Source of the DNA: Candidatus Aenigmatarchaeota archaeon
GTDB lineage: Archaea; Aenigmatarchaeota; Aenigmatarchaeia; CG10238-14; SCSR01
NCBI GenBank assembly: GCA_039000165.1
Contig: JAWBTW010000003.1
Location: 21,187 to 79,355 of the forward strand
Direction: 5' to 3'
Length of the DNA: 58,169 nt
Part shown: piece after piece, positions 10,301-58,169 of the stretch
Layout of the letters: the number at the start of each line of letters is the position of its first letter
How positions within the stretch are numbered: the first letter of the stretch is position 1
Notes under the pieces: generated by a model
Seen by the model: the letters and a program-made list of their open reading frames with translations, nothing else
Database searches by the model: none
What the model was told of the DNA's origin: nothing
Position numbers and translations under genes: made by a program

Positions 10301-10394
10301 GGGCCTATAGCTCAGCCTGGTTAGAGCAATCGCCTTATATGGCTCGCTTTCGTGAGAAAGCGATAGGTCGAGGGTTCAAATCCCTCTAGGCCCA
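10301..10394 (+). tRNA. tRNA-Ile(UAU) with 19-nt intron at 37/38 (10340..10358)
   Basis: Acceptor GGGCCTA/TAGGCCC, D-stem GCTC/GAGC, anticodon stem ATCGC/GCGAT, loop CT-TAT-A|A, T-arm GAGGG-TTCAAAT-CCCTC. BHB central helix CUUA/UGAG. Spliced length 75 nt; CCA not encoded. Confidence 0.92.
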
Positions 10395-47864: not shown

Positions 47865-47978
47865 CCCCGCTTAGCTCAATGGTAGAGCGACCGGCTGTAG
47901 GCGAGCGCTTTGGCGCTTGCTAGTAGCTATCGCTCGGTCAATACCGGTAGGTTGGGAGTTCAAGTCTCCCAGCGGGGA
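47865..47978 (+). tRNA. tRNA-Tyr(GUA) with 42-nt intron at 37/38 (47901..47942)
   Basis: C1:G72 acceptor CCCCGCT/AGCGGGG, ACCGG/CCGGT stem, CT-GTA-G|A loop; spliced length 72 nt. The junction motif is non-canonical. Confidence 0.88.
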
Positions 47979-48048
47979 CTATTATTTTTAGGCTATAAAA
48001 ACCAAAAACTTTAAAAGTTTTTAAATTCCAAATATCATAAATATATTC

Positions 48049-48164
48049 GTTGGCGGCCAAAGCGGGGAGGAAACATCTGTTCCCGTTCCGAACACAGTAA
48101 TTAAGCTCCCCAGCGATCTGGGTTGTACTTTCCGAAAGGAAGGGAACTCCAGGACGCCGCCAAC
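48049..48164 (+). rRNA. rrf: 5S rRNA (stand-alone, not with 16S/23S)
   Basis: Terminal helix GTTGGCGGC/GCCGCCAAC, CCCGTTCCGAACACAG..TTAAGC core, TTCC-GAAA-GGAA loop; 116 nt. Confidence 0.95.
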
Positions 48165-48239
48165 AATTTAAATTGGTGTCTGTATTAAAGAAAAAACAGA
48201 GAATGATGACTTTTCCTTAGAATTCCATGAAATAAGGAT

Positions 48240-48325
48240 GCCTCGGTGGTGTAGGGGCCTAATGGATAGGCTAAGCATACGAGCCTGTCACGCTCGTGAC
48301 ACGGGTTCAAATCCCGTCCGAGGCG
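48240..48325 (+). tRNA. tRNA-Asp(GUC) with 13-nt D-arm intron at 21/22 (48262..48274)
   Basis: GCCTCGG/CCGAGGC acceptor, G73, CGAGC-CT-GTC-AC-GCTCG arm. The 22-nt D-loop resolves via BHB (GGCC/GGCU helix, UA|A and AA|G bulges). Spliced length 73 nt. Confidence 0.9.
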
Positions 48326-48575: not shown

Positions 48576-50054
48576 TTGAATGAAACTTTCCTTACCTTGT
48601 TGGAAGTATTCACTAGAGAAAAAGGTTTTGTTAGGTTTCAGATAGATTCTTATAACGACTTTATAACAAGAAGAATACCAAAGGTCCTTTCAGAAATAGG
48701 TGTAATAAAACCAGAGGTTCCAGAGCTTGGAGAGTTCAAAATTAAACTCGGGGAATTTAAAATAGGAGAACCCACAGTTAAAGAAGCGGACGGATCTACT
48801 AGACCAATACTACCAATGGAAGCAAGAATTAGGAATTTGACCTATGCTGCTCCAATGTATGTGGAAATGACCCCAGTACTTAACAATATAGAAAGTGAAA
48901 GTGTTGTTGTTAATTTTGGTGACATGCCGGTAATGGTAAAGTCAAAGATCTGTCCTCTTTCTTACATGAGTAAACAAGAACTCATAGAAGCTGGTGAAGA
49001 CCCTGAAGATCCAGGAGGGTACTTTATAATTAACGGTACAGAAAGAATTCTTGTTTTGGTAGAGGAAATAGCACCAAATAGAATAATAGTTTCTAAGGTT
49101 GACACAGGGAGCATTACAGAAATTGCTAGAATTCATTCCGAAAAAGACGGCTATGTTCAAAGGCATTTACTCGAAAGGAAAAATGATGGTTTGATATTCA
49201 TAAGTTTTGCTAATATAACAAGGTTACCTATAGCTGTTATTTTAAAGGCTTTAGGTCTTGAATCTGATAAAGATATAGTTACCGCAATTTCACTTGATCC
49301 AGAAGTTCAAGAAGAATTTTATGTTAACCTTTATGAGACTGAAATTTCAACAAGAAATGAAGCTTTGGATGAAATTGGTAAGCATATAAAAATACCTCAA
49401 AAGGAGTACAGAATTGACAGGGCCACAAAGCTTATAGATAAGTACTTACTTCCTCACTTAGGCCAGAACCCTGAAAACAGAATGGAAAAAGCTATTTTCT
49501 TGGCAAAGGCTGTTGGTAAGCTAATTAAATTACATCTTGGGAAGATTGAGGAAGACGATTTGGACCATTATTCTAACAAAAGAATTAAGCTTGCTGGTGA
49601 TTTGTTAGAAATTCTACTTAGGTCTATTCTCCTTGGAAAATGGGGATTGATAACAAGAATCACTTACAACTATCAAAAACTGACAAAAAGAGGAAGATTA
49701 CCTCCTCTACAAGCAATAGTAGAATCCAATGTTTTAACAAACCAGATTGTCTCTGCTCTAGCAATAGGTTCATGGGTTGGTGGAAGAACAGGAGTAAGCC
49801 AAAGGTTGGAAAGGGGTAGCTATATAAAGACTTTATCCCATATGAGAAACGTGCTTTCACCTCTAACTTCAACTCAGGAGCACTTCGAAGCAAGAGAGCT
49901 TCACCCAACTCATTGGGGTAAGTTATGTACAAGCGAAACACCAGAAGGTGCAACAATAGGGTTAAGAAAATACTTAGCTTTGATGGCTGAGGTAACTAGC
50001 GGCTTAGGAGAAAAAGAAAAGAAAGCAATCTTAAACATAGTAAAAGGTGGTTGA
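48576..50054 (+). CDS. rpo2N: RNA polymerase subunit Rpo2N (B'')
   Basis: QIDSYNDF, EARIRNLTYAAP, GGYFIINGTE, RELHPTHWG, TPEG. Confidence 0.96.
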   Translation: MNETFLTLLEVFTREKGFVRFQIDSYNDFITRRIPKVLSEIGVIKPEVPELGEFKIKLGEFKIGEPTVKEADGSTRPILPMEARIRNLTYAAPMYVEMTPVLNNIESESVVVNFGDMPVMVKSKICPLSYMSKQELIEAGEDPEDPGGYFIINGTERILVLVEEIAPNRIIVSKVDTGSITEIARIHSEKDGYVQRHLLERKNDGLIFISFANITRLPIAVILKALGLESDKDIVTAISLDPEVQEEFYVNLYETEISTRNEALDEIGKHIKIPQKEYRIDRATKLIDKYLLPHLGQNPENRMEKAIFLAKAVGKLIKLHLGKIEEDDLDHYSNKRIKLAGDLLEILLRSILLGKWGLITRITYNYQKLTKRGRLPPLQAIVESNVLTNQIVSALAIGSWVGGRTGVSQRLERGSYIKTLSHMRNVLSPLTSTQEHFEARELHPTHWGKLCTSETPEGATIGLRKYLALMAEVTSGLGEKEKKAILNIVKGG

Positions 50055-51851
50055 ATGGCTGATATATTCTTAGACGGAAAGTATATTGGCTCAACAAACG
50101 AACCAGAAAAATTGGTTGAAAAGATAAGAAACGAAAGAAGAAGTGGTTTAATTTCCAGCCAAGTAAACGTCGTTTATTACAAAGAATTAGATGAGATAAG
50201 AATTCTAACTGATCCTGGAAGAGTAAGAAGGCCTTTAATAATCGTGGAAAACGGAAAACCAAAACTAACTCAAGAACATATAGAAAAATTGAAAAGAGGA
50301 GAAATGAAGTGGGACGATTTGCTTAAAAACGGAATTATCGAATATCTAGATGCAGAAGAAGAGGAAAATGCATATATAGCACTTAAACCAGAAGATGTTA
50401 CTCCAGAACATACTCATTTAGAATTAGACCCTTCTTTAATTCTTGGCCTTTCTGCTTCTTTCATTCCTTATCCTGAATTTAACAGGGGTGATAGGGTAAA
50501 CTATGGAGCCAAAATGATTGGTCAATCCATTGGTTTATTCATAACAAACTATCTTAGCCGAGTGGACACAAAATCCAATGTTTTAATTTATCCGCAAGTT
50601 CCTATAGTTCAAACTTATTCCCATAAAATTATAAATTATGAAAAGCATCCTAGTGGGGCTAATATCATAATTGCTGTTGCTTCTTTCCAAGGATACAACA
50701 TGGAAGATGCCATTATAATAAATGCTAGCTCTTTGCAAAGAGGTTTGTTCTGGTCTTACATGTTTAGAACTTATGAAGCTGAACAGAAAAGATATATGGG
50801 TGGACAAGAAGATATTATAGGAATACCTGAACCTGGAGTAAGGGGTTATGCTGGAGAAGACGCTTACAAGCACCTACCAGAAGATGGGATAGTTAATCCT
50901 GAAACAATCGTTAACTCAGACCAAGTGCTTATAGGAAGAATTTCACCTCTCAGGTTCTTGGGCTCGATGGACCAGTTTGTTACTGGAATCGAAAACATAA
51001 GGGAAACTTCTGTCAGACTAAGACACGGAGATACAGGAATTGTTGACAGAGTTTTCTTAACCGAAACCGTAGACGGAACGAAACTTGTAAAAGTTGTGGT
51101 TAGAGACTTGAAAATTCCTGAAATAGGTGATAAATTTGCTAGTAGACACGGACAAAAAGGAGTAATCGGTTTAATAGTTCCTCAAGAAGATATGCCTTTT
51201 ACAGAAGATGGAATAGTTCCAGATATAATTTTTAATCCTCATGGTATACCTTCAAGAATGACGATGGGTCAACTTTTGGAAATAATTGCAGGAAAGGTTG
51301 GTGCACTTTCTGGTAAATATATCTTATCTCCACCTTTCAATCCAACATCAGAAAAAGAGTTAAGAAGCATGCTTGAAGCCTATGGTTTTAGGAACGACGG
51401 AAAAGAAACAATGTACGACGGTATAACCGGGAAAAAGTTTGAAGCACAAATTTTTATAGGAAGCTGTTTCTATCAGAAATTGGACCATCTTGTATCAAAC
51501 AAAATTCATGCAAGGTCAAGGGGACCTGTTGCATTATTAACCAAACAACCTACAGAAGGAAGGAGCAAGGAAGGAGGATTAAGGCTGGGAGAAATGGAGA
51601 AAGATTGCTTAATTGCACATGGAGCTGCTCTTGCTTTAAAAGAAAGGTTTGATTCTGACAAAACAACCGTATCAGTTTGTAGTGAATGTGGTCTGATTGC
51701 TATATTCGATAGGATAAAAAACAAAAAGTATTGTCCAGTTTGTAAAGAGTCAAAAATAGTTGACATTGAAATGAGCTATGCTTTCAAGTTAATGCTTGAT
51801 GAACTCAAAAGCATGCTTATTTACCCGAAAATAGTTGTGAAGGAGGAGTAA
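50055..51851 (+). CDS. rpo2C: RNA polymerase subunit Rpo2C (B')
   Basis: GYNMEDA, GDKFASRHGQKG, NPHGIPSRMT, GGLRLGEME, C-terminal Zn finger. Confidence 0.97.
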   Translation: MADIFLDGKYIGSTNEPEKLVEKIRNERRSGLISSQVNVVYYKELDEIRILTDPGRVRRPLIIVENGKPKLTQEHIEKLKRGEMKWDDLLKNGIIEYLDAEEEENAYIALKPEDVTPEHTHLELDPSLILGLSASFIPYPEFNRGDRVNYGAKMIGQSIGLFITNYLSRVDTKSNVLIYPQVPIVQTYSHKIINYEKHPSGANIIIAVASFQGYNMEDAIIINASSLQRGLFWSYMFRTYEAEQKRYMGGQEDIIGIPEPGVRGYAGEDAYKHLPEDGIVNPETIVNSDQVLIGRISPLRFLGSMDQFVTGIENIRETSVRLRHGDTGIVDRVFLTETVDGTKLVKVVVRDLKIPEIGDKFASRHGQKGVIGLIVPQEDMPFTEDGIVPDIIFNPHGIPSRMTMGQLLEIIAGKVGALSGKYILSPPFNPTSEKELRSMLEAYGFRNDGKETMYDGITGKKFEAQIFIGSCFYQKLDHLVSNKIHARSRGPVALLTKQPTEGRSKEGGLRLGEMEKDCLIAHGAALALKERFDSDKTTVSVCSECGLIAIFDRIKNKKYCPVCKESKIVDIEMSYAFKLMLDELKSMLIYPKIVVKEE

Positions 51852-51853
51852 AA

Positions 51854-54385
51854 ATGCAAGTTGATAGAATAGAGTTTTCAATTTTGAGCCCAGAAATGAT
51901 TAAGAAAATGAGCGTAGCAAAGATAACAAAAACTGAACTTTATGACCAAGAAGGTTATCCAATAGAAGGTGGGCTAATGGACCCAAGGCTTGGTGTAGTT
52001 GACCCAGGAATAAGGTGTAGAACATGTGGGGGAAGTGTTGGGGAATGTCATGGCCATTTTGGCTATCTTGAACTTACTCGTCCTGTAGTTCATGTTCACT
52101 ATGCAAAAATAATTTTAAGTCTCTTGAAATTGTGTTGCAAAAAGTGTGGTAGAGTTTTAATAGCTGAAAAGGATATACAAAAAATAAAAACGAAAAAAAT
52201 TCCTTTGAAGGAGATAGCCAAGCTTGCTAAAAAGAAATGTCCTTATTGTAACGCTGAACAAGGTAAAATAAAATTCATCAAACCTTACACTTTTCTTGAA
52301 GATAACGAAATCTTAAACCCGATAAAATTGAGAGAAAGACTTGAAAAAATTCCAAACGAAGACCTCGAAATTTTAGGTTTCAGGAACATGCGCCCAGAAT
52401 GGCTTATTTTAACGCTTTTGCCCATTCCTCCAGTAACTGTTAGACCTTCTATCACCTTAGAAACTGGTGAAAGATCAGAAGATGATTTAACACATAAGCT
52501 TGTTGATATTGTAAGGATTAATGAAAGGTTAAAAGAAAACATAGATCTTGGGGCGCCTGAGTTTATTATAGAAGATCTTTGGGAACTTTTACAATATCAT
52601 GTTGCAACATTTTTCGATAATGAAATAACAGGTGTACCCCCTGCAAGACATCGCTCAGGAAGAGTTCTTAAAACTTTATCACAAAGATTAAAAACAAAAG
52701 AGGGAAGATTCAGAGGAAACTTAGCAGGAAAAAGGGTAAACTTTTCGGCAAGGACTGTCATAAGTCCTGACTCGATGATTGATATAGATGAGGTTGGAGT
52801 TCCAGAAGCCATAGCAAAAGAACTAACAATTCCTGTAAGAGTTAACGAAAAAAATCTAGAAGAAATGAGAAGATTAGTTCTTAACGGAACTAATTGGCCT
52901 GGAGCTAACTACATAATAAGGCCAGATGGAAGAAGGAAAAAAGTAACCAATGAAAATAAAGAAGATTTAGCAAAAGAACTAGCTCCTGGCTATATAGTTG
53001 AAAGACATATAAGAGATGGTGACATAGCTCTTTTTAACAGACAACCAAGCTTACATAGAATGAGCTTAATGGCCCATAGGGTAAGAGTAATGCCTTTCAA
53101 AACTTTCAGGCTGAACTTATGTACTTGTCCTCCTTATAATGCAGATTTTGACGGTGATGAAATGAACCTTCATATCCCGCAGACAGAAGAGGCACAAGTC
53201 GAAGCACAAGAATTAATGATAGTACCTAAGCACATTAGAAGCCCTAGGTTTTCTGGACCGATAATAGGTGCTGTAAAAGATCATATTACTGGTTTGTACT
53301 TGTTAACTCATGGAAATAAAAAGTTTAAAAGAGAAGAGTTTGTCCAACTTATAAGAGCTGTTGATCAAGAAATAGAAATACCAGAAAAAGAGTATATGAC
53401 CGGGAAAGAGATATTTAGCCTTTTCCTTCCGAAAGACTTTTCTATAGAGCACAAAGCCAAATCATGCAGAGGTTGTGAAAAATGTTTGAAGGAAAAGTGT
53501 CCTTATGATGCTTATGTTGTAATAAAGAATGGAAAACTAATATGTGGAACTATAGATAAAGCAGCACTTGGAGAGGAAGACGGGAAAGTAATAGATAAAA
53601 TGGAGAAAGAATACGGAGCAATGTTCTTGAAAAAGTTTCTTTTCAATATTACAAGACTTTCTATTCAAGTTTTGATGAATTCCGGGTTTTCAATTAGTAT
53701 CTCAGATCAAGACCTGACAGAAGAAGAAACAAGAGAAATTAAAAATATCCTTGAAAAAATAAGAAAAGAAGTCGACGAACTCATAGAATCTTATGAAAAA
53801 GGGGAAATAAGAATTCTTGCCGGAAGAACTCCGAAAGAAAGTTTAGAGCATTTGATTAAGATAAAATTGAGGAACGGTTTAAACGAAGTAGGAAAGATTT
53901 TAGCTGAACGTATGAAAGAAAACCCAACCATAATAATGGCCAAAAGTGGAGCAAGGGGAAGTCTTGTAAACCTTGTTCAGACTGCAGCAGTCATAGGACA
54001 AGAGACTGTTATGGGTGAAAGAATGGAAAGAGGTTATCGCGAAAGAACATTCCCACATTTCAGAAGAGGGGATGTGAGTCTAGAAGCAAAAGGTTTTGTA
54101 GCAAGAGGGTTTAAAAATGGTCTAACACCTTTTGAATTTTTCTTTGATGCAATTAACAGTAGAGAGTCCTTGATGGACAAATCCCTCAAAACAAGACACT
54201 CGGGATACATGGAAAGAAGATTGGTAGGAGCTTTACAAGATTTGAAAGTAGAATATGATGGTAGTGTGAGAGATAGTGCTAAGAGAATTATTCAATTCTT
54301 ACCAGGGGAAGATGGACTCGACCCTTCAAAAATTAAAAAGGTGGGTATAGATGTCAGAGGAATTGCAGAAAAACTATTTGGATGA
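51854..54385 (+). CDS. rpo1N: RNA polymerase subunit Rpo1N (A')
   Basis: Zn motif CRTCG...CHGHFG; catalytic [11 protein letters not shown]. Confidence 0.98.
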
Positions 54386-55484
54386 AATAGCCTTGCCCAG
54401 AAAAATTGTTAAGGAAATAGAAGAAGTTGCTAAGGAGAAAAAATTAACTAAGGAACAGGTAAAGAAGTTAGAGGAAGAAGTAAAAAAAGAATATTTAAAA
54501 TCCATGTTTGAGCCTGGAGAAGCCATAGGCATAATCGCAGCTCAAAGCATTTCTGAACCTGCAACCCAAATGACCATGCGAACTTATCATTTTGCTGGCT
54601 CTGCTGGTATAAAAGTTACTTATGGATTACCCCGCTTAATTGAAATTTTCGACGCGAAGAAAAATCCTGAGACACCTATGATGACTATTTATCTTAAAAA
54701 AGAGTTTAACAACAAAGATGATGCAAAAAAAGTTGCTGAAAAAATTCTTGAAAAAAATGTTTCAAAATTGATGAAAAGAGCTTCTATAAACTTAAGTGAA
54801 GGTTTTATAGAAATTGAACCAATCGACCTAAGAAAAACTGAAAGTATCGGGAATGCTATAAAAGAAAATTTCAAAGACTTAAAGGTTTTGATAAAAAAGG
54901 ATAGAATAATAGCTAAACCTAAAAAAGAAATTGAAGTAAGGGAACTACAGAGATTAAGAGAAAAAATTCTGAACACAAAAGTCAGTGGAATAAAAGGTAT
55001 TTCCAACGTTATTGTGAGAAAAGAGGGTGAAGATTGGATAATAAACACCATAGGTTCTAACTTAGAAGAAGTTCTTAAGATGAAAGAAGTTGACTGTACC
55101 AGAACTATCACAAATGATATATACGAAACTGCTAGAGTTTTGGGAATAGAAGCTGCAAGGAACCTTATAATTAACGAGGCTCTTAAAACTTTAGAAGAAC
55201 AAGGATTAAACGTTGATATTCGTCATTTAATGCTTGTCGGAGATATAATGACAAGAAGCGGGACAATAAAACCAATAGGGAGATATGGAGTTGCAGGAGC
55301 TAAATCTTCAATATTAGCAAGAGCAGCTTTCGAAGAAACAATTAAACACTTAGTTAAAGCTTCTGTTAGAAATGAGATTGATAATTTCCAAGGAATCTTT
55401 GAAAATGTTATGATTGGACAAGTGGTTCCTGCCGGAACTGGAATGTTTGAACTAGTAGCAAGATTTGAAGAGGAAGAACAATGA
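54351..55484 (+). CDS. rpo1C: RNA polymerase subunit Rpo1C (A'')
   Basis: [42 protein letters not shown]. Start is ATG 54351 or TTG 54378. Confidence 0.97.
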
Positions 55485-55741
55485 GTTTAGCAAAAATAAT
55501 TCAAGATGCAATAAAAAGCAAAAAAGCGATAATAGGTTATAGAGAATCGATTAAATATTTGAAGTTAAACAGAGCAGAATTAATCATATTAGCAGAAAAC
55601 TCACCTGAAAAAATAAAAAAAGAAATTGAACATATAGCAAAAATTGGAAATATAAAGTTAGAGACTGTGAAAGAAAGCAAAGAACTAGGAATAATTTGCG
55701 GAAAACCGTTTCCAGTAACAACTGTAGTGATTAAAGGATAA
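55481..55741 (+). CDS. rpl30e: 50S ribosomal protein L30e
   Basis: IIGYRESIK...[12 protein letters not shown]; conserved operon position. Confidence 0.95.
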
Positions 55742-55743
55742 CT

Positions 55744-56166
55744 ATGAGCTTGACTTTCAACACAGAAACTATAAGGCTTATAACGCTATTCGAGAACCTT
55801 ACTGGAGCTAGAGTTAGAGATTGTATAGTAGACAAGGAAACAAATACTGTTTATTTTCTTGTAGAAGAAGGAATGGTAGGAAAAGCCATAGGAAAAAACG
55901 GAAACGTAGTTAAAAACACAGAAAAATTAATAGGAAAGAACATCAAAATATTCGAATTTTCAAACGACTTGAGAACTTTTGTTAAAAAGCTCATACCGCA
56001 AGCCAACGAAATAAGGATAAAAAATGAAAATAACACGATAACCGTAGAGGTAAAAGTAGATAAAAAAGAAAAACCTTTAATCATAGGAAGAGATGAGAAA
56101 AACTTAAAAATATTAAAACAATTATTTCAAAGAAATCACAAGGTTAGTGATTTAATTGTAAGGTGA
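55744..56166 (+). CDS. nusA: Transcription factor NusA (archaeal, KH domains)
   Basis: [27 protein letters not shown]; conserved position. Confidence 0.95.
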
Positions 56167-56170
56167 GAAA

Positions 56171-56596
56171 ATGGGAAGAGGTTTATTTGCGGCGAGGAAA
56201 TTGAAGAAAACAAGGAAAAAAATGAAATGGAAAGATATACACTATAAAAGAAGAGTCTTACAACTTTGGAAAAAAGATCCCTTAGAAGGGGCTCCTCAAG
56301 CTAGGGGAATTGTTATAGACAAACGTGGAGTAGAACAAAGAAAACCTGCTTCTGGTTTAATAAAGGCTGTAAGAGTCCAACTCCTTAAAAATAACGTCCA
56401 AGTTACCGCTCACGTTCCTGGAGAAGGAGCAATAGATATAATTAACGAGCACGATGAAGTACTTATAGAAAGTATTGGTGGCGCGCAAGGTGGGCCAAAA
56501 GGAAGTATGTGGGGGATAAAATATAAAGTTGTAAAAGTTAATGGAGTAGCTTTAAGTGAAATTTTAGCTGGAAAGAAACAAAAACCAACAAGGTAA
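56171..56596 (+). CDS. rps12: 30S ribosomal protein S12 (uS12), divergent
   Basis: [48 protein letters not shown]. Confidence 0.96.
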
Positions 56597-56602
56597 AAGA
56601 TT

Positions 56603-57202
56603 ATGGAAATAAAAATTTTTGGAAAATGGAGTACAGAGGGGATAGAAGTTAAAGATCCTGGTTTAGCAAAATACATAAACCTTAAACCAGTAATAGTTCC
56701 TCGCTCTGGAGGAAAGCACGCTAAACAACAATTCCATAAGTCTAAAATGAACATTGTTGAAAGACTTATGAATAAGCTTATGGTTCCTGGCCATAGAGGG
56801 AAGAAACATGTAATCAGCTCAGATCATTGTGTGGGAAAAACTTCTATTCAATATAAAATTGTTAAAAAAGCTTTTGAAAAAATTGAACAAATAACGAAGA
56901 AAAACCCGATAGAAGTTTTGGTAGGAGCTATAGAAAACGCTGCACTAAGAGAAGAGATAACTTCCTATCAACTTGGAGGAATAATCGTTAGAAGAGCTGT
57001 AGTTACTAGTCCACAAAGAAGAGTCGACTTGGCTTTGAGAAATATAGTTCAAGCAGCTTACAGGAAAGCTTTTGGTAAAAAGGAAAATATGGTTGATGCC
57101 TTAGTAAACGAAATAATTGCTGCTTATAATAATGATGCAAGTAAGAGTGAAGCAATAAAAGAAAAGGAAAGAATAGAAAGGGAAGCTGAAGGTGCAAGAT
57201 AA
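56603..57202 (+). CDS. rps7: 30S ribosomal protein S7 (uS7)
   Basis: NIVERLMNKLM, NPIEVLV.AIENAALREE, SPQRRVD.A, EGAR. Confidence 0.97.
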   Translation: MEIKIFGKWSTEGIEVKDPGLAKYINLKPVIVPRSGGKHAKQQFHKSKMNIVERLMNKLMVPGHRGKKHVISSDHCVGKTSIQYKIVKKAFEKIEQITKKNPIEVLVGAIENAALREEITSYQLGGIIVRRAVVTSPQRRVDLALRNIVQAAYRKAFGKKENMVDALVNEIIAAYNNDASKSEAIKEKERIEREAEGAR

Positions 57203-57400
57203 AAATGTTAAAATTTTGGATACAATTTTAACTAGTTTGTTCAAAACTAAAGAATAGAATAATTCTCTGGCCGAAATCTTTTTACCTTTGGGTTTTACCT
57301 TTTGGTTAGCCAAAAAATGACAAAGAATAAAAATTTATAATCGAAAAGTGAAGATTATAACTTATAATTGCAAAAAAAAAGATTAAGGAGGCGAAAACAA

Positions 57401-58169
57401 TTGGCAAAAAAAGAGATGATCGAAAGAATTAAGGAAGTGATGAAGGATCCAGCAAGAATAAGAAATGTTGCAACAAGCTCCCATGTACATCATGGTAAAA
57501 CAGCCTTAACTGATAATCTAATGGCTGGAGCAGGAATGCTAGCAGAAGAAATGGCAGGAAAAGTAATGTATACTTGGTTTGATGAACAAGAAAGGAGAAG
57601 ACAATTAACAATTTATGGAGCAAACGTTTCAATGGTTCATGAATATGAAGGTAAAGATTATTTGATTAACTTAGTGGATACACCTGGTCATGTAGATTTT
57701 GGTGGTGATGTAACCAGAGCTATGCGTGCTGTCGATGGCACCATTGTTTTGGTCTGCGCAGTAGAGGGGATAATGCCACAAACAGAGACTGTTTTTAGAC
57801 AAGCTTTAAGGGAATATGTTAAACCTGTACTTTTTATAAACAAGACTGACAGACTGATTAAAGAATTAAAACTATCACCCGAAGACATACAAAAAAGATT
57901 TGAGGAAATTATTCGAGATGTTAATATTTTGATTCAAAAGTATGCTCCTGAAGAATTTAAAAATAAATGGTTGGTAAGTGTTGCCAATGGAAGTGTAGCC
58001 TTTGGTTCTGCAACCAAAAGATGGGCAATCTCTATTCCTTACATGCAAAAAACTGGAATCACTTTCAAGGAAATTATCGAGCTAACCTTAGCTGGAAAAG
58101 AAGATGAACTAGCTAAAAAAGCTCCTTTACATCAGGTTGTTTTGGATATGATTATTAAACATCTACCAA
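57401..58169 (+). CDS. fusA: Elongation factor 2 (N-terminal G domain; runs off the window end; absent from ORF track)
   Basis: TTG start after SD AAGGAGG; [59 protein letters not shown]; follows rps7. Confidence 0.96.

What the first reader, a model, noticed from the sequence alone, without database searches (positions are those of the whole stretch)
56336..56518. uS12 altered in both highly conserved decoding-centre loops
Seen: QRKPASG (56336-56356) replaces the archaeal/eukaryotic AKQPNSA, and GSMWGI (56501-56518) replaces GDIPGV. The latter loses the Asp equivalent to methylthiolated D88 of E. coli and the following Pro; the changes are multi-codon, so not a single-base error. Known: these loops govern decoding accuracy and contact elongation-factor complexes. 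Inference: a retuned decoding centre, perhaps co-evolved with tRNA-Ile(UAU) (AUA/AUG discrimination) and the variant EF-2.
Basis: partly seen in the sequence, partly recalled or inferred. Interest (0 to 1): 0.65.

Follow-up and report, generated by a model that had tools for sequence, protein, structure and literature searches.

The report
Rewired uS12 decoding loops in DPANN archaea
The ribosomal protein uS12 of this hot-spring Aenigmatarchaeon has lost several supposedly universal residues beside the decoding site, as whole DPANN lineages have. The lost residues brace the protein's two loops against each other, while the residues that touch the codon are kept.

Summary
The gene at 56171-56596 is a full-length archaeal uS12 in its usual operon. 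It reads QRKPASG and GSMWGI where other archaea and eukaryotes read AKQPNS(A/G) and GDIPG(V/I).

It is not an error. Four independent hot-spring assemblies give the identical sequence, and all 120 closest homologues (those named are Aenigmatarchaeota) share the variant.

- Three residues change together: N45, R49 and D88 (E. coli numbering). In E. coli simulations these form the hydrogen-bond network that ties the PNSA and PGVR loops.
- This change occurs in Micrarchaeota, Aenigmatarchaeota and Nanopusillaceae-type Nanoarchaeota.
- P44, S46 and G91 stay essentially invariant across 454 sequences. P44 and S46 are the residues that contact the codon.
- The window carries the most derived form: K42R, N45A, R49I, D88S, L89M, P90W and R93K.

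My best reading is a compensated rewiring of an inter-loop brace. K42R is the known thermophile "hyperaccuracy" variant.

The proposed link to tRNA-Ile(UAU) is not required. The window does encode that tRNA, but Nanoarchaeum equitans uses UAU and keeps N45, D88 and P90. The link remains open, because 16S decoding-site changes co-occur in two related variant lineages.

The parts
56171..56596 (+). rps12 gene encoding uS12, 141 aa. ATG start with a GGTGA Shine-Dalgarno-like motif 6 nt upstream; the end coordinate includes the stop codon.
   Evidence: ORF. Pfam PF00164. NCBIfam TIGR00982 and NF003254 above cut-off. E = 3e-50 to solved archaeal uS12. Identical in four assemblies.
56336..56365 (+). 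Loop 1, the PNSA-loop equivalent: Q56-R57-K58-P59-A60-S61-G62-L63-I64-K65. Changes are K42R (56339-56341), Q/K43K, N45A (56348-56350) and R49I (56360-56362). P44 (56345-56347) and S46 (56351-56353) are kept.
   Evidence: Roles of Q61, Hyp62 and S64 in human uS12. N45 and R49 belong to the H-bond network with D88.
56501..56521 (+). Loop 2, the PGVR-loop equivalent: G111-S112-M113-W114-G115-I116-K117. Changes are D88S (56504-56506), L89M, P90W (56510-56512), V92I and R93K. G91 is kept.
   Evidence: D88 lies next to G527 of 16S in E. coli. R93 contacts C910 of h27 in E. coli simulations.
56366..56368 (+). Ala66, where most archaea have Cys (RK-C-VRVQ). In relatives this Cys is the +1 residue of a roughly 505-aa intein, so the window allele cannot host that intein.
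54351..56166 (+). Upstream operon genes: rpoA'' (54351-55484), L30e (55481-55741) and a NusA-like KH protein (55744-56166).
   Evidence: NCBIfam TIGR02389. Pfam PF01248 and KH domains.
56603..57202 (+). rps7 (uS7), immediately downstream.
   Evidence: Pfam PF00177, E = 4.7e-34.
57416..58169 (+). 5' part of the EF-2 gene, cut by the window end; the start codon is provisional. The P-loop reads SSHVHHGKT (57476-57502) instead of AH[VI]DHGK[TS].
   Evidence: NCBIfam aEF-2, E = 3e-127 on the 251-aa fragment. Sequence. Distribution in relatives.
10301..10394 (+). tRNA-Ile(UAU) gene with a 19-nt intron at the canonical 37/38 site. It lies 46 kb upstream of rps12.
   Evidence: Rfam tRNA alignment shows the anticodon loop CUUAUA. 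Sequence. The spliced form folds as a cloverleaf with loop CUUAUAA. ARAGORN miscalls it as tta or aga.

Best explanation
This is the single, functional uS12 of a hot-spring Aenigmatarchaeon (DPANN). It carries a lineage-wide rewiring of the contact between its two decoding-centre loops.

In canonical uS12 the side chains of N45 and R49 (PNSA loop) and the carboxylate of D88 (PGVR loop) form a hydrogen-bond and salt-bridge network that holds the loops together. Here the polar triad is replaced by A60, I64 and S112. The adjacent L89 and P90 are replaced by M113 and W114. The result would be a small/hydrophobic/aromatic packing in place of a buried charged network.

The residues that reach the codon-anticodon helix, Mg2+ and C518 (P44, S46) and G91 are retained. 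Basic decoding geometry should therefore be preserved.

The path appears stepwise and compensated:
1. N-R-D-P (canonical).
2. N-I-D-P, with R49 lost first, as in N. equitans.
3. H/Y-I-S-P (Micrarchaeota, Nanopusillaceae, some Aenigmatarchaeota).
4. H-I-S-W/H.
5. A/S/C/T-I-S/T-W/V (the window's subclade).

Separately, K42R is the natural thermophile variant that lowers stop-codon readthrough when engineered into flies.

Shown: the sequence states, their covariation, their distribution, and the invariance of the contact residues. Inferred: that the swap is structurally compensatory, that it leaves decoding roughly intact or mildly more restrictive, and that it may be matched by 16S h18/h44 changes.
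For: 1. Real and fixed. The sequence is identical in four assemblies. All 120 nearest homologues are variant. All six Ser codons are used at the D88 site. The gene sits in the canonical rpoA''-L30e-NusA-S12-S7-EF2 context.

2. Contact network. [quoted passage not shown]

3. Covariation. Among 454 distinct uS12 sequences the states are N-R-D-P 180, H-I-S-P 58, A-I-S/T-W 65, H-I-C-P 18, Y-I/N-S-P 20 and N-I-D-P 11. In the sets collected by homology alone, N45 against D88 gives 196 both canonical, 142 both changed and only 4 discordant. R49 against D88 gives 186, 142 and 14.

4. Probably repeated origins. With both loops masked, Nanoclepta-type sequences are closest to N. equitans-type sequences (minimum distance 0.10). 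Both are closer to canonical sequences (0.24-0.25) than to the Micrarchaeota or window types (0.33-0.39).

5. Contact residues kept. P44 is present in 454/454, S46 in 451/454 and G91 in 452/454. Their roles in human ribosomes: Hyp62 and S64 with C614 and Mg2+ at codon base 3, Q61 with codon base 2 and A1824 (PMC10156603).

6. Second-order coupling. Small residues at site 45 occur only with W, V, Q or A at site 90, whereas H or Y at site 45 occurs mostly with P90.

7. K42R. R is reported only in thermophilic archaea and K60R lowers readthrough (PMC8570412). The window comes from hot-spring metagenomes. R is found in 106 of the 120 nearest homologues.

8. General divergence. The protein also differs at other conserved columns (F81H, G101S, K76V, D85E), as expected of a fast-evolving lineage.
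Against: - No coordinates could be inspected. The N45-R49-D88 network is documented for E. coli simulations, not for an archaeal ribosome.
- The proposed hydrophobic or aromatic replacement packing is inferred from residue types only.
- The covariation is confounded by phylogeny. Only about 2-3 independent events are supported, on a 141-aa protein. A rough neighbour-joining/Fitch count gave 2 changes for R49, 7 for D88 and 11 for N45.
- Exceptions exist: N with S, C or A at site 88, and C with D.
- Functional near-neutrality is not shown. In eukaryotes even R67K (equivalent to R49K) lowers fidelity, and P90 changes in bacteria give strong accuracy phenotypes (my knowledge). The variant could therefore change decoding substantially.
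- Co-occurring changes in 16S (G518 in L062; G518, A527 and h44 1404-1406/1495-1497 in Micrarchaeon A_DKE), in EF-2 and in AUA decoding hint at a wider functional shift than a purely internal compensation.
Confidence: 0.6

Rival explanations
1. Adaptive retuning for AUA decoding. After loss of TiaS/agmatidine, AUA is read by tRNA-Ile(UAU). The uS12 loops, perhaps together with 16S and EF-2, changed so that the ribosome rejects U34-G wobble at AUG, as reported for the Mycoplasma mobile ribosome.
For: - The window encodes tRNA-Ile(UAU), and so does the related Aenigmatarchaeon L075.
- AUA is the commonest Ile codon in the RNA polymerase and ribosomal-protein genes, 161 of 290.
- The ARMAN lineages, including Micrarchaeota, have tRNA-Ile(UAU) and lack tRNA-Ile(CAU) and TiaS (PMC3239211). 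All 120 Micrarchaeaceae-type uS12 sequences are variant.
- The M. mobile ribosome blocks AUG misreading by tRNA-Ile(UAU), and S12 or 16S was proposed as the cause (PMC3575796).
- The altered loops sit beside codon position 3.
Against: - N. equitans has tRNA-Ile(UAU) but keeps N45, D88 and P90 in uS12 (ERRQPNSG/GDIPGV).
- Korarchaeota, which also use UAU, are reported to have only an isolated K-to-R change.
- K-to-R is shared with Thermoprotei and Archaeoglobaceae, which to my knowledge use agmatidine.
- P44 and S46, the residues nearest codon base 3, are unchanged.
- The co-occurrence lies entirely within DPANN, so it is not phylogenetically independent.
- TiaS absence could not be tested for the window's genome.
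Confidence: 0.12
2. Protein-rRNA co-evolution. The uS12 changes compensate for, or are compensated by, substitutions at normally invariant 16S decoding-site nucleotides (h18 position 518 or 527, top of h44) that arose in fast-evolving, small-genome DPANN lineages.
For: - L062 is an Aenigmatarchaeon with an H-I-S-P uS12. It has G at 16S position 518, where the archaeal Rfam consensus has c.
- C518 stacks on G530 and shares a Mg2+ with uS12 P44/S46 and codon base 3.
- The 16S of Micrarchaeon A_DKE reads GGTGGCAGCCGCCACGG, which gives G518 and A527. It also has compensated changes at 1404-1497, 1405-1496 and 1409-1491, and U1406-U1495 is replaced by C-G (the numbering comes from my own alignment to E. 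coli).
- G527 lines the pocket next to D88 in E. coli.
Against: - There are only two 16S data points, and neither comes from the window's subclade.
- The window organism's own 16S was not recovered.
- The 16S state in lineages with canonical uS12 inside DPANN, such as N. equitans, was not checked, so G518 may simply be a DPANN trait.
- L062 keeps G527.
Confidence: 0.25
3. Natural resistance to decoding-site inhibitors. K42R and changes at P90 are classic streptomycin-resistance or dependence positions in bacteria, so the variant might protect against aminoglycoside-like compounds in the habitat or made by the host.
For: The positions coincide with bacterial rpsL resistance sites (my knowledge). 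In A_DKE the aminoglycoside-site pair U1406-U1495 is changed.
Against: - No inhibitor is known.
- Archaea are largely insensitive to streptomycin for rRNA reasons (my knowledge).
- The pattern is ancient and clade-wide, not patchy as resistance alleles usually are.
- The covarying triad is not a resistance signature.
Confidence: 0.04
4. Artefact, pseudogene, or a divergent spare copy alongside a canonical rps12.
For: The NF003254 score is only just above its cut-off, 196.6 against 196. Whole genomes could not be scanned.
Against: - The reading frame is intact, in the canonical operon.
- The sequence is identical in four assemblies.
- More than 300 variant homologues are under purifying selection.
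- The window has only one copy, and each of the 120 genome loci has one match.
Confidence: 0.01

Closest known systems
Canonical archaeal/eukaryotic uS12 (RPS23), for example the Pyrococcus and Thermococcus chains in solved 30S/70S structures (4v6u, 6skf)
   Same: - Same family, length and operon position.
- 63% identity to the Pyrococcus chain.
- The alignment has no gaps in or between the two loops.
- P44, S46, G91 and Y94 are kept.
   Different: K42R, Q43K, N45A, R49I, D88S, L89M, P90W and R93K. The "universal" PNSA and PGVR motifs read PASG and WGIK. Further substitutions occur at conserved columns: F81H, G101S, K76V and C66A.
Natural K-to-R variant of the KQPNSA lysine in thermophilic archaea (RPS23 K60R; Martinez-Miguel et al. 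2021, PMC8570412)
   Same: Arg at the same position, in an organism from hot springs. The Nanoarchaeales also have it, reading RRQPNSG or KRQPYSG.
   Different: That paper reports R only in Thermoprotei, Korarchaeota and Archaeoglobaceae, and as an isolated change. Here it lies in a DPANN lineage and is embedded in a multi-residue rewiring. Within the clade, 14 of the 120 nearest homologues keep K.
Bacterial rpsL accuracy and streptomycin mutants (K42, K87, P90) and RimO-methylthiolated D88
   Same: The same structural positions at the h18/h27/h44 junction. D88 is described as universally conserved.
   Different: These are fixed natural states in archaea, not laboratory alleles. RimO is exclusively bacterial, so no modification is known to be lost. 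Several sites change together.
Human RPS23 R67K ribosomopathy allele
   Same: R67 is the R49-equivalent member of the triad. Even a change to Lys lowers fidelity and blocks Pro62 hydroxylation.
   Different: Here the position is Ile (Ile, Leu, Val, Thr or Asn in relatives), and the partners N45 and D88 have changed as well, which suggests compensation rather than a defect.
Mycoplasma mobile AUA decoding by tRNA-Ile(UAU) with a discriminating ribosome (Taniguchi et al. 2013, PMC3575796)
   Same: A tRNA-Ile(UAU) gene occurs together with a suspected ribosomal contribution from S12 or 16S.
   Different: That system is bacterial, and the responsible ribosomal element was never identified. Here no functional data exist, and N. 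equitans shows that UAU decoding works with a uS12 that keeps N45, D88 and P90.

Membership tests
uS12 (Ribosomal_S12_S23; archaeal/eukaryotic type) | Profile HMM score above the curated cut-offs | tested here: met
   PF00164: 118.7 bits against 22.3. TIGR00982: 192.2 against 140.2. NF003254: 196.6 against 196.
uS12 (Ribosomal_S12_S23; archaeal/eukaryotic type) | Full-length collinear alignment to uS12 chains of solved ribosomes | tested here: met
   Residues 3-141 align to 4v4n_BN and 4v6u_AN at E = 3e-50. The only gap is a single residue near position 33, outside both loops.
uS12 (Ribosomal_S12_S23; archaeal/eukaryotic type) | Conserved operon context (rpoA''-L30e-NusA-S12-S7-EF2) | tested here: met
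uS12 (Ribosomal_S12_S23; archaeal/eukaryotic type) | "Universally conserved" PNSA and PGVR motifs | tested here: not met
   The window reads PASG and WGIK. Only P44, S46 and G91 are kept. The same departure is seen in hundreds of DPANN uS12 sequences, so the motif definition is too narrow. This does not argue against the gene being uS12.
uS12 (Ribosomal_S12_S23; archaeal/eukaryotic type) | Sole copy in the genome | tested here: inconclusive
   There is one copy in the 58-kb window and one match per genome locus. Whole genomes could not be read.
Natural K60R-type (thermophile, hyperaccurate) uS12 | Arg at the lysine of KQPNSA | tested here: met
   R57, codon AGA at 56339-56341.
Natural K60R-type (thermophile, hyperaccurate) uS12 | K-to-R is an isolated change in an otherwise canonical protein | tested here: not met
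   At least seven further changes occur in the two loops.
Natural K60R-type (thermophile, hyperaccurate) uS12 | Thermophilic host | tested here: inconclusive
   The sequence is held by hot-spring metagenomes. The growth temperature is unknown. The 5S and tRNA G+C of 53-58% is moderate.
Natural K60R-type (thermophile, hyperaccurate) uS12 | Lower translational error rate | not testable with these tools
   Needs reporter assays or in vitro kinetics.
RimO-modified uS12 (beta-methylthio-Asp88) | Asp at position 88 | tested here: not met
   S112, codon AGT. RimO is exclusively bacterial.
TiaS-independent AUA decoding system (tRNA-Ile UAU) | tRNA-Ile gene with anticodon UAU | tested here: met
   Window 10301-10394.
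TiaS-independent AUA decoding system (tRNA-Ile UAU) | Absence of TiaS and of tRNA-Ile(CAU) from the genome | not testable with these tools
   Only 58 kb of the genome is available. Reported for ARMAN, N. equitans and K. cryptofilum in the literature.
TiaS-independent AUA decoding system (tRNA-Ile UAU) | A ribosome-level feature that is specific to, and needed for, UAU decoding | tested here: not met
   N. equitans uses UAU and keeps N45, D88 and P90. The K-to-R change is shared with lineages outside the UAU group.

The most novel reading that the evidence does not exclude
Several DPANN lineages (Micrarchaeota, Aenigmatarchaeota, Nanopusillaceae) have rebuilt the ribosomal decoding centre as a unit. 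The rebuilt parts would be the uS12 N45-R49-D88/P90 brace, 16S h18 (G518, sometimes A527) and the top of h44 (including loss of the U1406-U1495 pair), with changes in the EF-2 P-loop alongside. On this reading the rebuild alters wobble-position monitoring so that an unmodified or differently modified tRNA-Ile(UAU) can read the very frequent AUA codon without misreading AUG after TiaS was lost.
Probability: 0.12. Interest if true: 0.85.

Novelty: new variant of a known kind. Interest (0 to 1): 0.6.

Why it matters
D88, the PNSA motif and the PGVR motif of uS12 are textbook "universally conserved" elements of the accuracy centre. Mutations there in bacteria, yeast and humans change fidelity or cause disease.

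Whole archaeal lineages live with N45, R49, D88 and, in the window's clade, P90 all replaced in a coupled way. This gives three things:
1. A natural experiment showing which parts of the loops are truly indispensable (P44, S46, G91) and which form an exchangeable brace.
2. A concrete set of compensatory residue combinations to test in model ribosomes.
3. Further occurrences of the K-to-R "hyperaccuracy" variant in thermophilic Aenigmatarchaeota and Nanoarchaeales, beyond the three clades reported.

If the co-occurring 16S changes and tRNA-Ile(UAU) prove to be linked, this would make a long-standing question testable: how ribosomes prevent AUG misreading by a UAU anticodon.

I found no paper describing these uS12 changes in DPANN.

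Tried and rejected
- **ARAGORN tRNA calls.** It gave "tRNA-Stop(tta)", or Ser(aga) with introns allowed, for 10301-10394. I rejected both in favour of the Infernal alignment and the spliced cloverleaf, which give Ile(UAU).
- **First DNA pattern.** The first local pattern had the wrong spacer length and found nothing. It was corrected.
- **Cluster look-up.** The listing of cluster members returned almost no organism names for the intermediate forms.
- **Metatranscriptomes.** Runs X10-X12 from the same study gave no reads on rps12 in the 3-5% sampled, so expression is not shown.
- **The window organism's 16S.** I laid hot-spring contigs on the L062 16S fragment and matched depth profiles (against 70). 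No contig could be assigned. Unitigs break at variable position 518, and no letter differences were reported there.
- **Loci scan for 16S.** Scanning all 120 loci and the window for the 530-loop core found only L062.
- **Anton et al. 2008.** The paper is not held in the library.
- **Phylogeny-aware count.** A neighbour-joining/Fitch count of events on the masked alignment is too noisy on 141 aa to give a firm number.
- **TiaS.** Its presence or absence could not be tested, because I had no query sequence and no whole genomes.
- **Structure prediction.** I did not run it. The tool returns no coordinates and no rRNA, so it could not test the contact hypothesis.
- **Rejected readings.**
  - Sequencing or assembly error and pseudogene.
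  - Loss of a D88 modification, because RimO is bacterial only.
Full report
**1. What is there**

The window holds one 141-aa ORF at 56171-56596 on the + strand. It begins with ATG six bases after a GGTGA motif. The region 56336-56356 translates to QRKPASG and 56501-56518 to GSMWGI.

The protein is uS12 by every test available:
- Pfam PF00164, E = 1.2e-34.
- NCBIfam equivalogs TIGR00982 (192 bits against 140) and NF003254 (196.6 against 196).
- An end-to-end alignment with solved archaeal uS12 chains at E = 3e-50, with no gap in or between the two loops.

It sits in the standard archaeal cluster: rpoA'' (54351-55484), L30e, a NusA-like KH protein, S12, S7 (56603-57202) and EF-2 (from about 57416, cut by the window end). 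tblastn with a canonical uS12 finds no second copy in the window. Contigs from four independent hot-spring metagenome runs cover 55400-57400 without a single differing letter.

**2. Which residues changed**

In the alignment to Pyrococcus/Thermococcus uS12, and using E. coli numbering, the window has:
- K42R, Q43K, N45A and A47G in loop 1 (A47G is also seen in Pyrococcus);
- D88S, L89M, P90W, V92I and R93K in loop 2.

P44, S46, G91 and Y94 are retained. The protein also departs from conserved columns elsewhere: F81H, G101S, K76V, D85E and C66A. It is a generally derived sequence, not a canonical one with two edited loops.

**3. Whose gene it is, and how widespread the variant is**

The 120 closest database proteins are 79-99% identical, and those with names are Candidatus Aenigmatarchaeota. 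All of them carry Q[RK][KQ]P[ASCT]SG and G[ST][ML][WQVA]G[IV].

Among diverse representatives of a 1.84-billion-protein library, 93 of 103 usable sequences have the canonical N45/R49/D88/P90. Only two have a variant triad.

I then scanned 185,579 species genomes with a degenerate DNA pattern for EHDEV-13 aa-G[S/T/C][I/M]xG. By record title:
- most are Micrarchaeota in the broad sense (including Anstonellales, Burarchaeum and Norongarragalinales);
- many are Aenigmatarchaeota;
- one is Nanoclepta minutus;
- the rest are unlabelled, or obviously mislabelled MAG contigs.

None is labelled Woese-, Pace-, Nanohalo-, Iain- or Altiarchaeota. A further homology search seeded with a Micrarchaeaceae protein found 120 of 120 sequences lacking D88 and R49. 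Ser at the D88 site is encoded by all six Ser codons, so the state is old and selected.

**4. The structure of the variation**

Across 454 distinct sequences the four sites 45, 49, 88 and 90 fall into a few classes:

| Sites 45-49-88-90 | Count | Where |
|---|---|---|
| N-R-D-P | 180 | canonical |
| N-I-D-P | 11 | Nanoarchaeum equitans type |
| H-I-S-P | 58 | Micrarchaeota, some Aenigmatarchaeota |
| H-I-C-P | 18 | Micrarchaeota, some Aenigmatarchaeota |
| Y-I/N-S-P | 20 | Nanoclepta/Nanopusillaceae |
| H-I-S-W/H | 14 | Aenigmatarchaeota |
| A/S/C/T-I/L/V/T-S/T-W/V/Q/A | more than 130 | the window's subclade |

In the sets gathered by homology alone:
- N45 against D88 gives 196 concordant canonical, 142 concordant changed and 4 discordant.
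- R49 against D88 gives 186, 142 and 14.

P44 (454/454), S46 (451/454) and G91 (452/454) do not vary.

The literature explains this pattern. [quoted passage not shown] The residues that reach into the decoding centre are different ones. In human ribosomes they are Q61 (codon base 2 and A1824), hydroxy-Pro62 and S64 (Mg2+ with C614, equivalent to C518, and codon base 3) (PMC10156603).

So the contact residues are kept and the brace between the loops is exchanged. Small residues at site 45 occur only when site 90 is W, V, Q or A, whereas H or Y goes mostly with P90. This suggests a stepwise, volume-compensating path from N-R-D-P to the window's A-I-S-W.

R49 matters functionally. The conservative R67K change in human RPS23 lowers fidelity.

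**5. How many times it happened**

With both loops masked:
- Nanoclepta-type sequences are nearest to N. equitans-type sequences (minimum distance 0.10; 75% overall identity).
- Both are nearer to canonical sequences (0.24-0.25) than to the Micrarchaeota or window types (0.33-0.39).
- The window type is nearest to the H..W/H Aenigmatarchaeota (0.22).
- The Micrarchaeota are equidistant from all other groups.

This favours at least two, and probably three, separate replacements of N45 and D88, each on a background that had already lost R49. A crude neighbour-joining/Fitch count is too noisy to be more exact. The inference that the substitutions are structurally compensatory is mine. No coordinates could be examined.

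**6. K42R**

Martinez-Miguel et al. found the Lys of KQPNSA nearly invariant. They found it replaced by Arg only in Thermoprotei, Korarchaeota and Archaeoglobaceae, as an isolated change. K60R lowers stop-codon readthrough in flies, and K60R yeast, worms and flies are more heat-tolerant and longer-lived.

The window's R57 is the same substitution, and the organism comes from hot springs. Of its 120 nearest relatives, 106 have R and 14 have K. N. equitans and the Nanoclepta group also have R. This extends that observation to DPANN thermophiles, but here the change is not isolated.

**7. The proposed link to tRNA-Ile(UAU), TiaS and EF-2**

The window does encode tRNA-Ile(UAU) at 10301-10394, with an intron at 37/38. 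ARAGORN miscalls it. A related Aenigmatarchaeon, L075, has one too. AUA is the commonest Ile codon in the neighbouring genes, 161 of 290.

Relevant literature:
- The ARMAN lineages have tRNA-Ile(UAU) and lack tRNA-Ile(CAU) and TiaS.
- Among 167 complete archaeal genomes, only K. cryptofilum and N. equitans had tRNA-Ile(UAU).
- The M. mobile ribosome prevents AUG misreading by tRNA-Ile(UAU), with S12 or 16S suggested as the cause.

The idea is therefore reasonable, and every variant lineage with tRNA data uses UAU.

The converse fails, however. N. equitans NEQ058 reads ERRQPNSG...GDIPGV, which is canonical at N45, D88 and P90. Korarchaeota are described as having only the K-to-R change. K-to-R itself occurs in lineages that, to my knowledge, use agmatidine. 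The variant is thus not needed for UAU decoding. All positive cases lie within DPANN, so the association cannot be separated from ancestry with the data I could reach.

The EF-2 variant is real. Its P-loop reads SSHVHHGKT instead of AH[VI]DHGK[TS] (57476-57502). It tracks the window's subclade, and a D-to-H P-loop also appears in a Micrarchaeota subgroup. The diphthamide HRG motif is retained in all relatives' EF-2 in which that region could be read. I see no mechanistic tie between the P-loop and the uS12 loops.

**8. rRNA**

The window has no 16S, only a 5S gene at 48049-48165.

One genome locus, L062, is an Aenigmatarchaeon with the H-I-S-P type. It carries the first 731 nt of 16S directly downstream of rps12. 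Aligned to the archaeal SSU model, its 530 loop reads GGUG-G-CAGCCGCCGCGGUAA, which puts G at position 518 where the consensus has c.

The 16S of the cultured Micrarchaeon A_DKE, printed in bioRxiv 10.1101/103150, shows the following (the numbering comes from my own alignment to E. coli):
- G518 and A527;
- compensated changes at 1404-1497, 1405-1496 and 1409-1491 in h44;
- C1406-G1495 in place of the U-U pair.

C518 shares a Mg2+ with uS12 P44/S46, and G527 lines the pocket next to D88. These two data points suggest that the rRNA side of the decoding centre is also remodelled in variant lineages. They do not come from the window's subclade, and I could not check DPANN genomes with canonical uS12. 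Attempts to recover the window organism's 16S from the same metagenomes failed.

**9. Verdict**

The feature is real, fixed, and more interesting in its pattern than in the two motifs alone. It is a coupled replacement of the N45-R49-D88 brace and, in this clade, of P90. These are residues repeatedly called universally conserved. The codon-contacting residues are strictly retained.

The best-supported mechanism is compensated rewiring of an intramolecular and rRNA-packing contact in fast-evolving DPANN lineages, with K42R as a separate thermophile-associated accuracy variant (confidence about 0.6). Co-evolution with 16S (about 0.25, compatible with the main reading) and adaptive retuning for tRNA-Ile(UAU) (about 0.12) remain open.

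I found no description of this in the literature searched. I classify it as a new variant of a known kind.

Noticed in passing
window 10301-10394 (+): Intron-containing tRNA-Ile(UAU). ARAGORN calls it tRNA-Stop(tta), or Ser(aga) with introns allowed. Infernal and the spliced cloverleaf give the anticodon loop CUUAUAA. This tRNA is rare in archaea: it was found in only K. cryptofilum and N. equitans among 167 genomes in PMC6000648.
   Followed up: yes
window 57476-57502 (+), within EF-2 (57416 to the window end): The EF-2 P-loop reads SSHVHHGKT instead of the usual AH[VI]DHGK[TS], so the P-loop Asp is replaced by His. To my knowledge that Asp coordinates a monovalent cation in translational GTPases. 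All relatives in the window's uS12 subclade share this. A Micrarchaeota subgroup, all 19 GCIPG-type loci where EF-2 could be read, has AHVHHGKT. The diphthamide HRG motif is retained in all relatives' EF-2 in which that region could be read.
   Followed up: partly
window 56366-56368; proteins P0121, P0127, P0130, P0133, P0136, P0138, P0151, P0259 (site 1) and P0222, P0187 (site 2): Some archaeal uS12 genes, including those of some Aenigmatarchaeota, carry a roughly 505-aa intein/homing endonuclease inserted at RK^CVRVQ. Others carry an intein inside the PNSA loop itself, at KQPN^SA. The window allele has Ala instead of the +1 Cys at the first site.
   Followed up: partly
L062 1-731 (-) and the rps12 gene just upstream (pattern match at L062 1040-1107, -): In this Aenigmatarchaeon the 16S rRNA gene follows rps12 directly, instead of rps7 and EF-2. 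Its 530 loop has G at E. coli position 518, where the archaeal consensus has C.
   Followed up: partly
Published 16S of Micrarchaeon A_DKE (bioRxiv 10.1101/103150, section 23): The sequence shows G518 and A527 in h18. In h44 it shows C1404U/G1497A, G1405A/C1496U and C1409A/G1491U, and U1406-U1495 is replaced by C-G. It also has a large ORF-containing insertion in the gene. The position numbering comes from my own alignment.
   Followed up: partly
window 47865-48325 (+): A 5S rRNA gene (48049-48165) is flanked by two tRNA genes, 47865-47978 with a roughly 45-nt intron and 48257-48325. No 16S or 23S gene lies in the window.
   Followed up: no
window 48576-57202 (RNA polymerase and ribosomal-protein genes): AUA is the most used Ile codon (161 AUA, 103 AUU, 26 AUC; 70 AUG) in a genome region of 33.8% G+C. 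The single tRNA-Ile(UAU) therefore carries a heavy decoding load.
   Followed up: no
L050, L064, L071, L073, L079, L087, L118: MAG contigs titled Methanobacteriota, Acidiferrales bacterium, Hydrogenothermaceae bacterium or Marsarchaeota carry DPANN-type (Micrarchaeota- or Nanoclepta-like) uS12. These are likely binning or labelling errors in the public records.
   Followed up: no
window 56171-56596, residues 76, 81, 85, 101, 109: Further substitutions occur at columns that are more than 93% conserved in canonical uS12: K76V, F81H, D85E, G101S and S109P.
   Followed up: no
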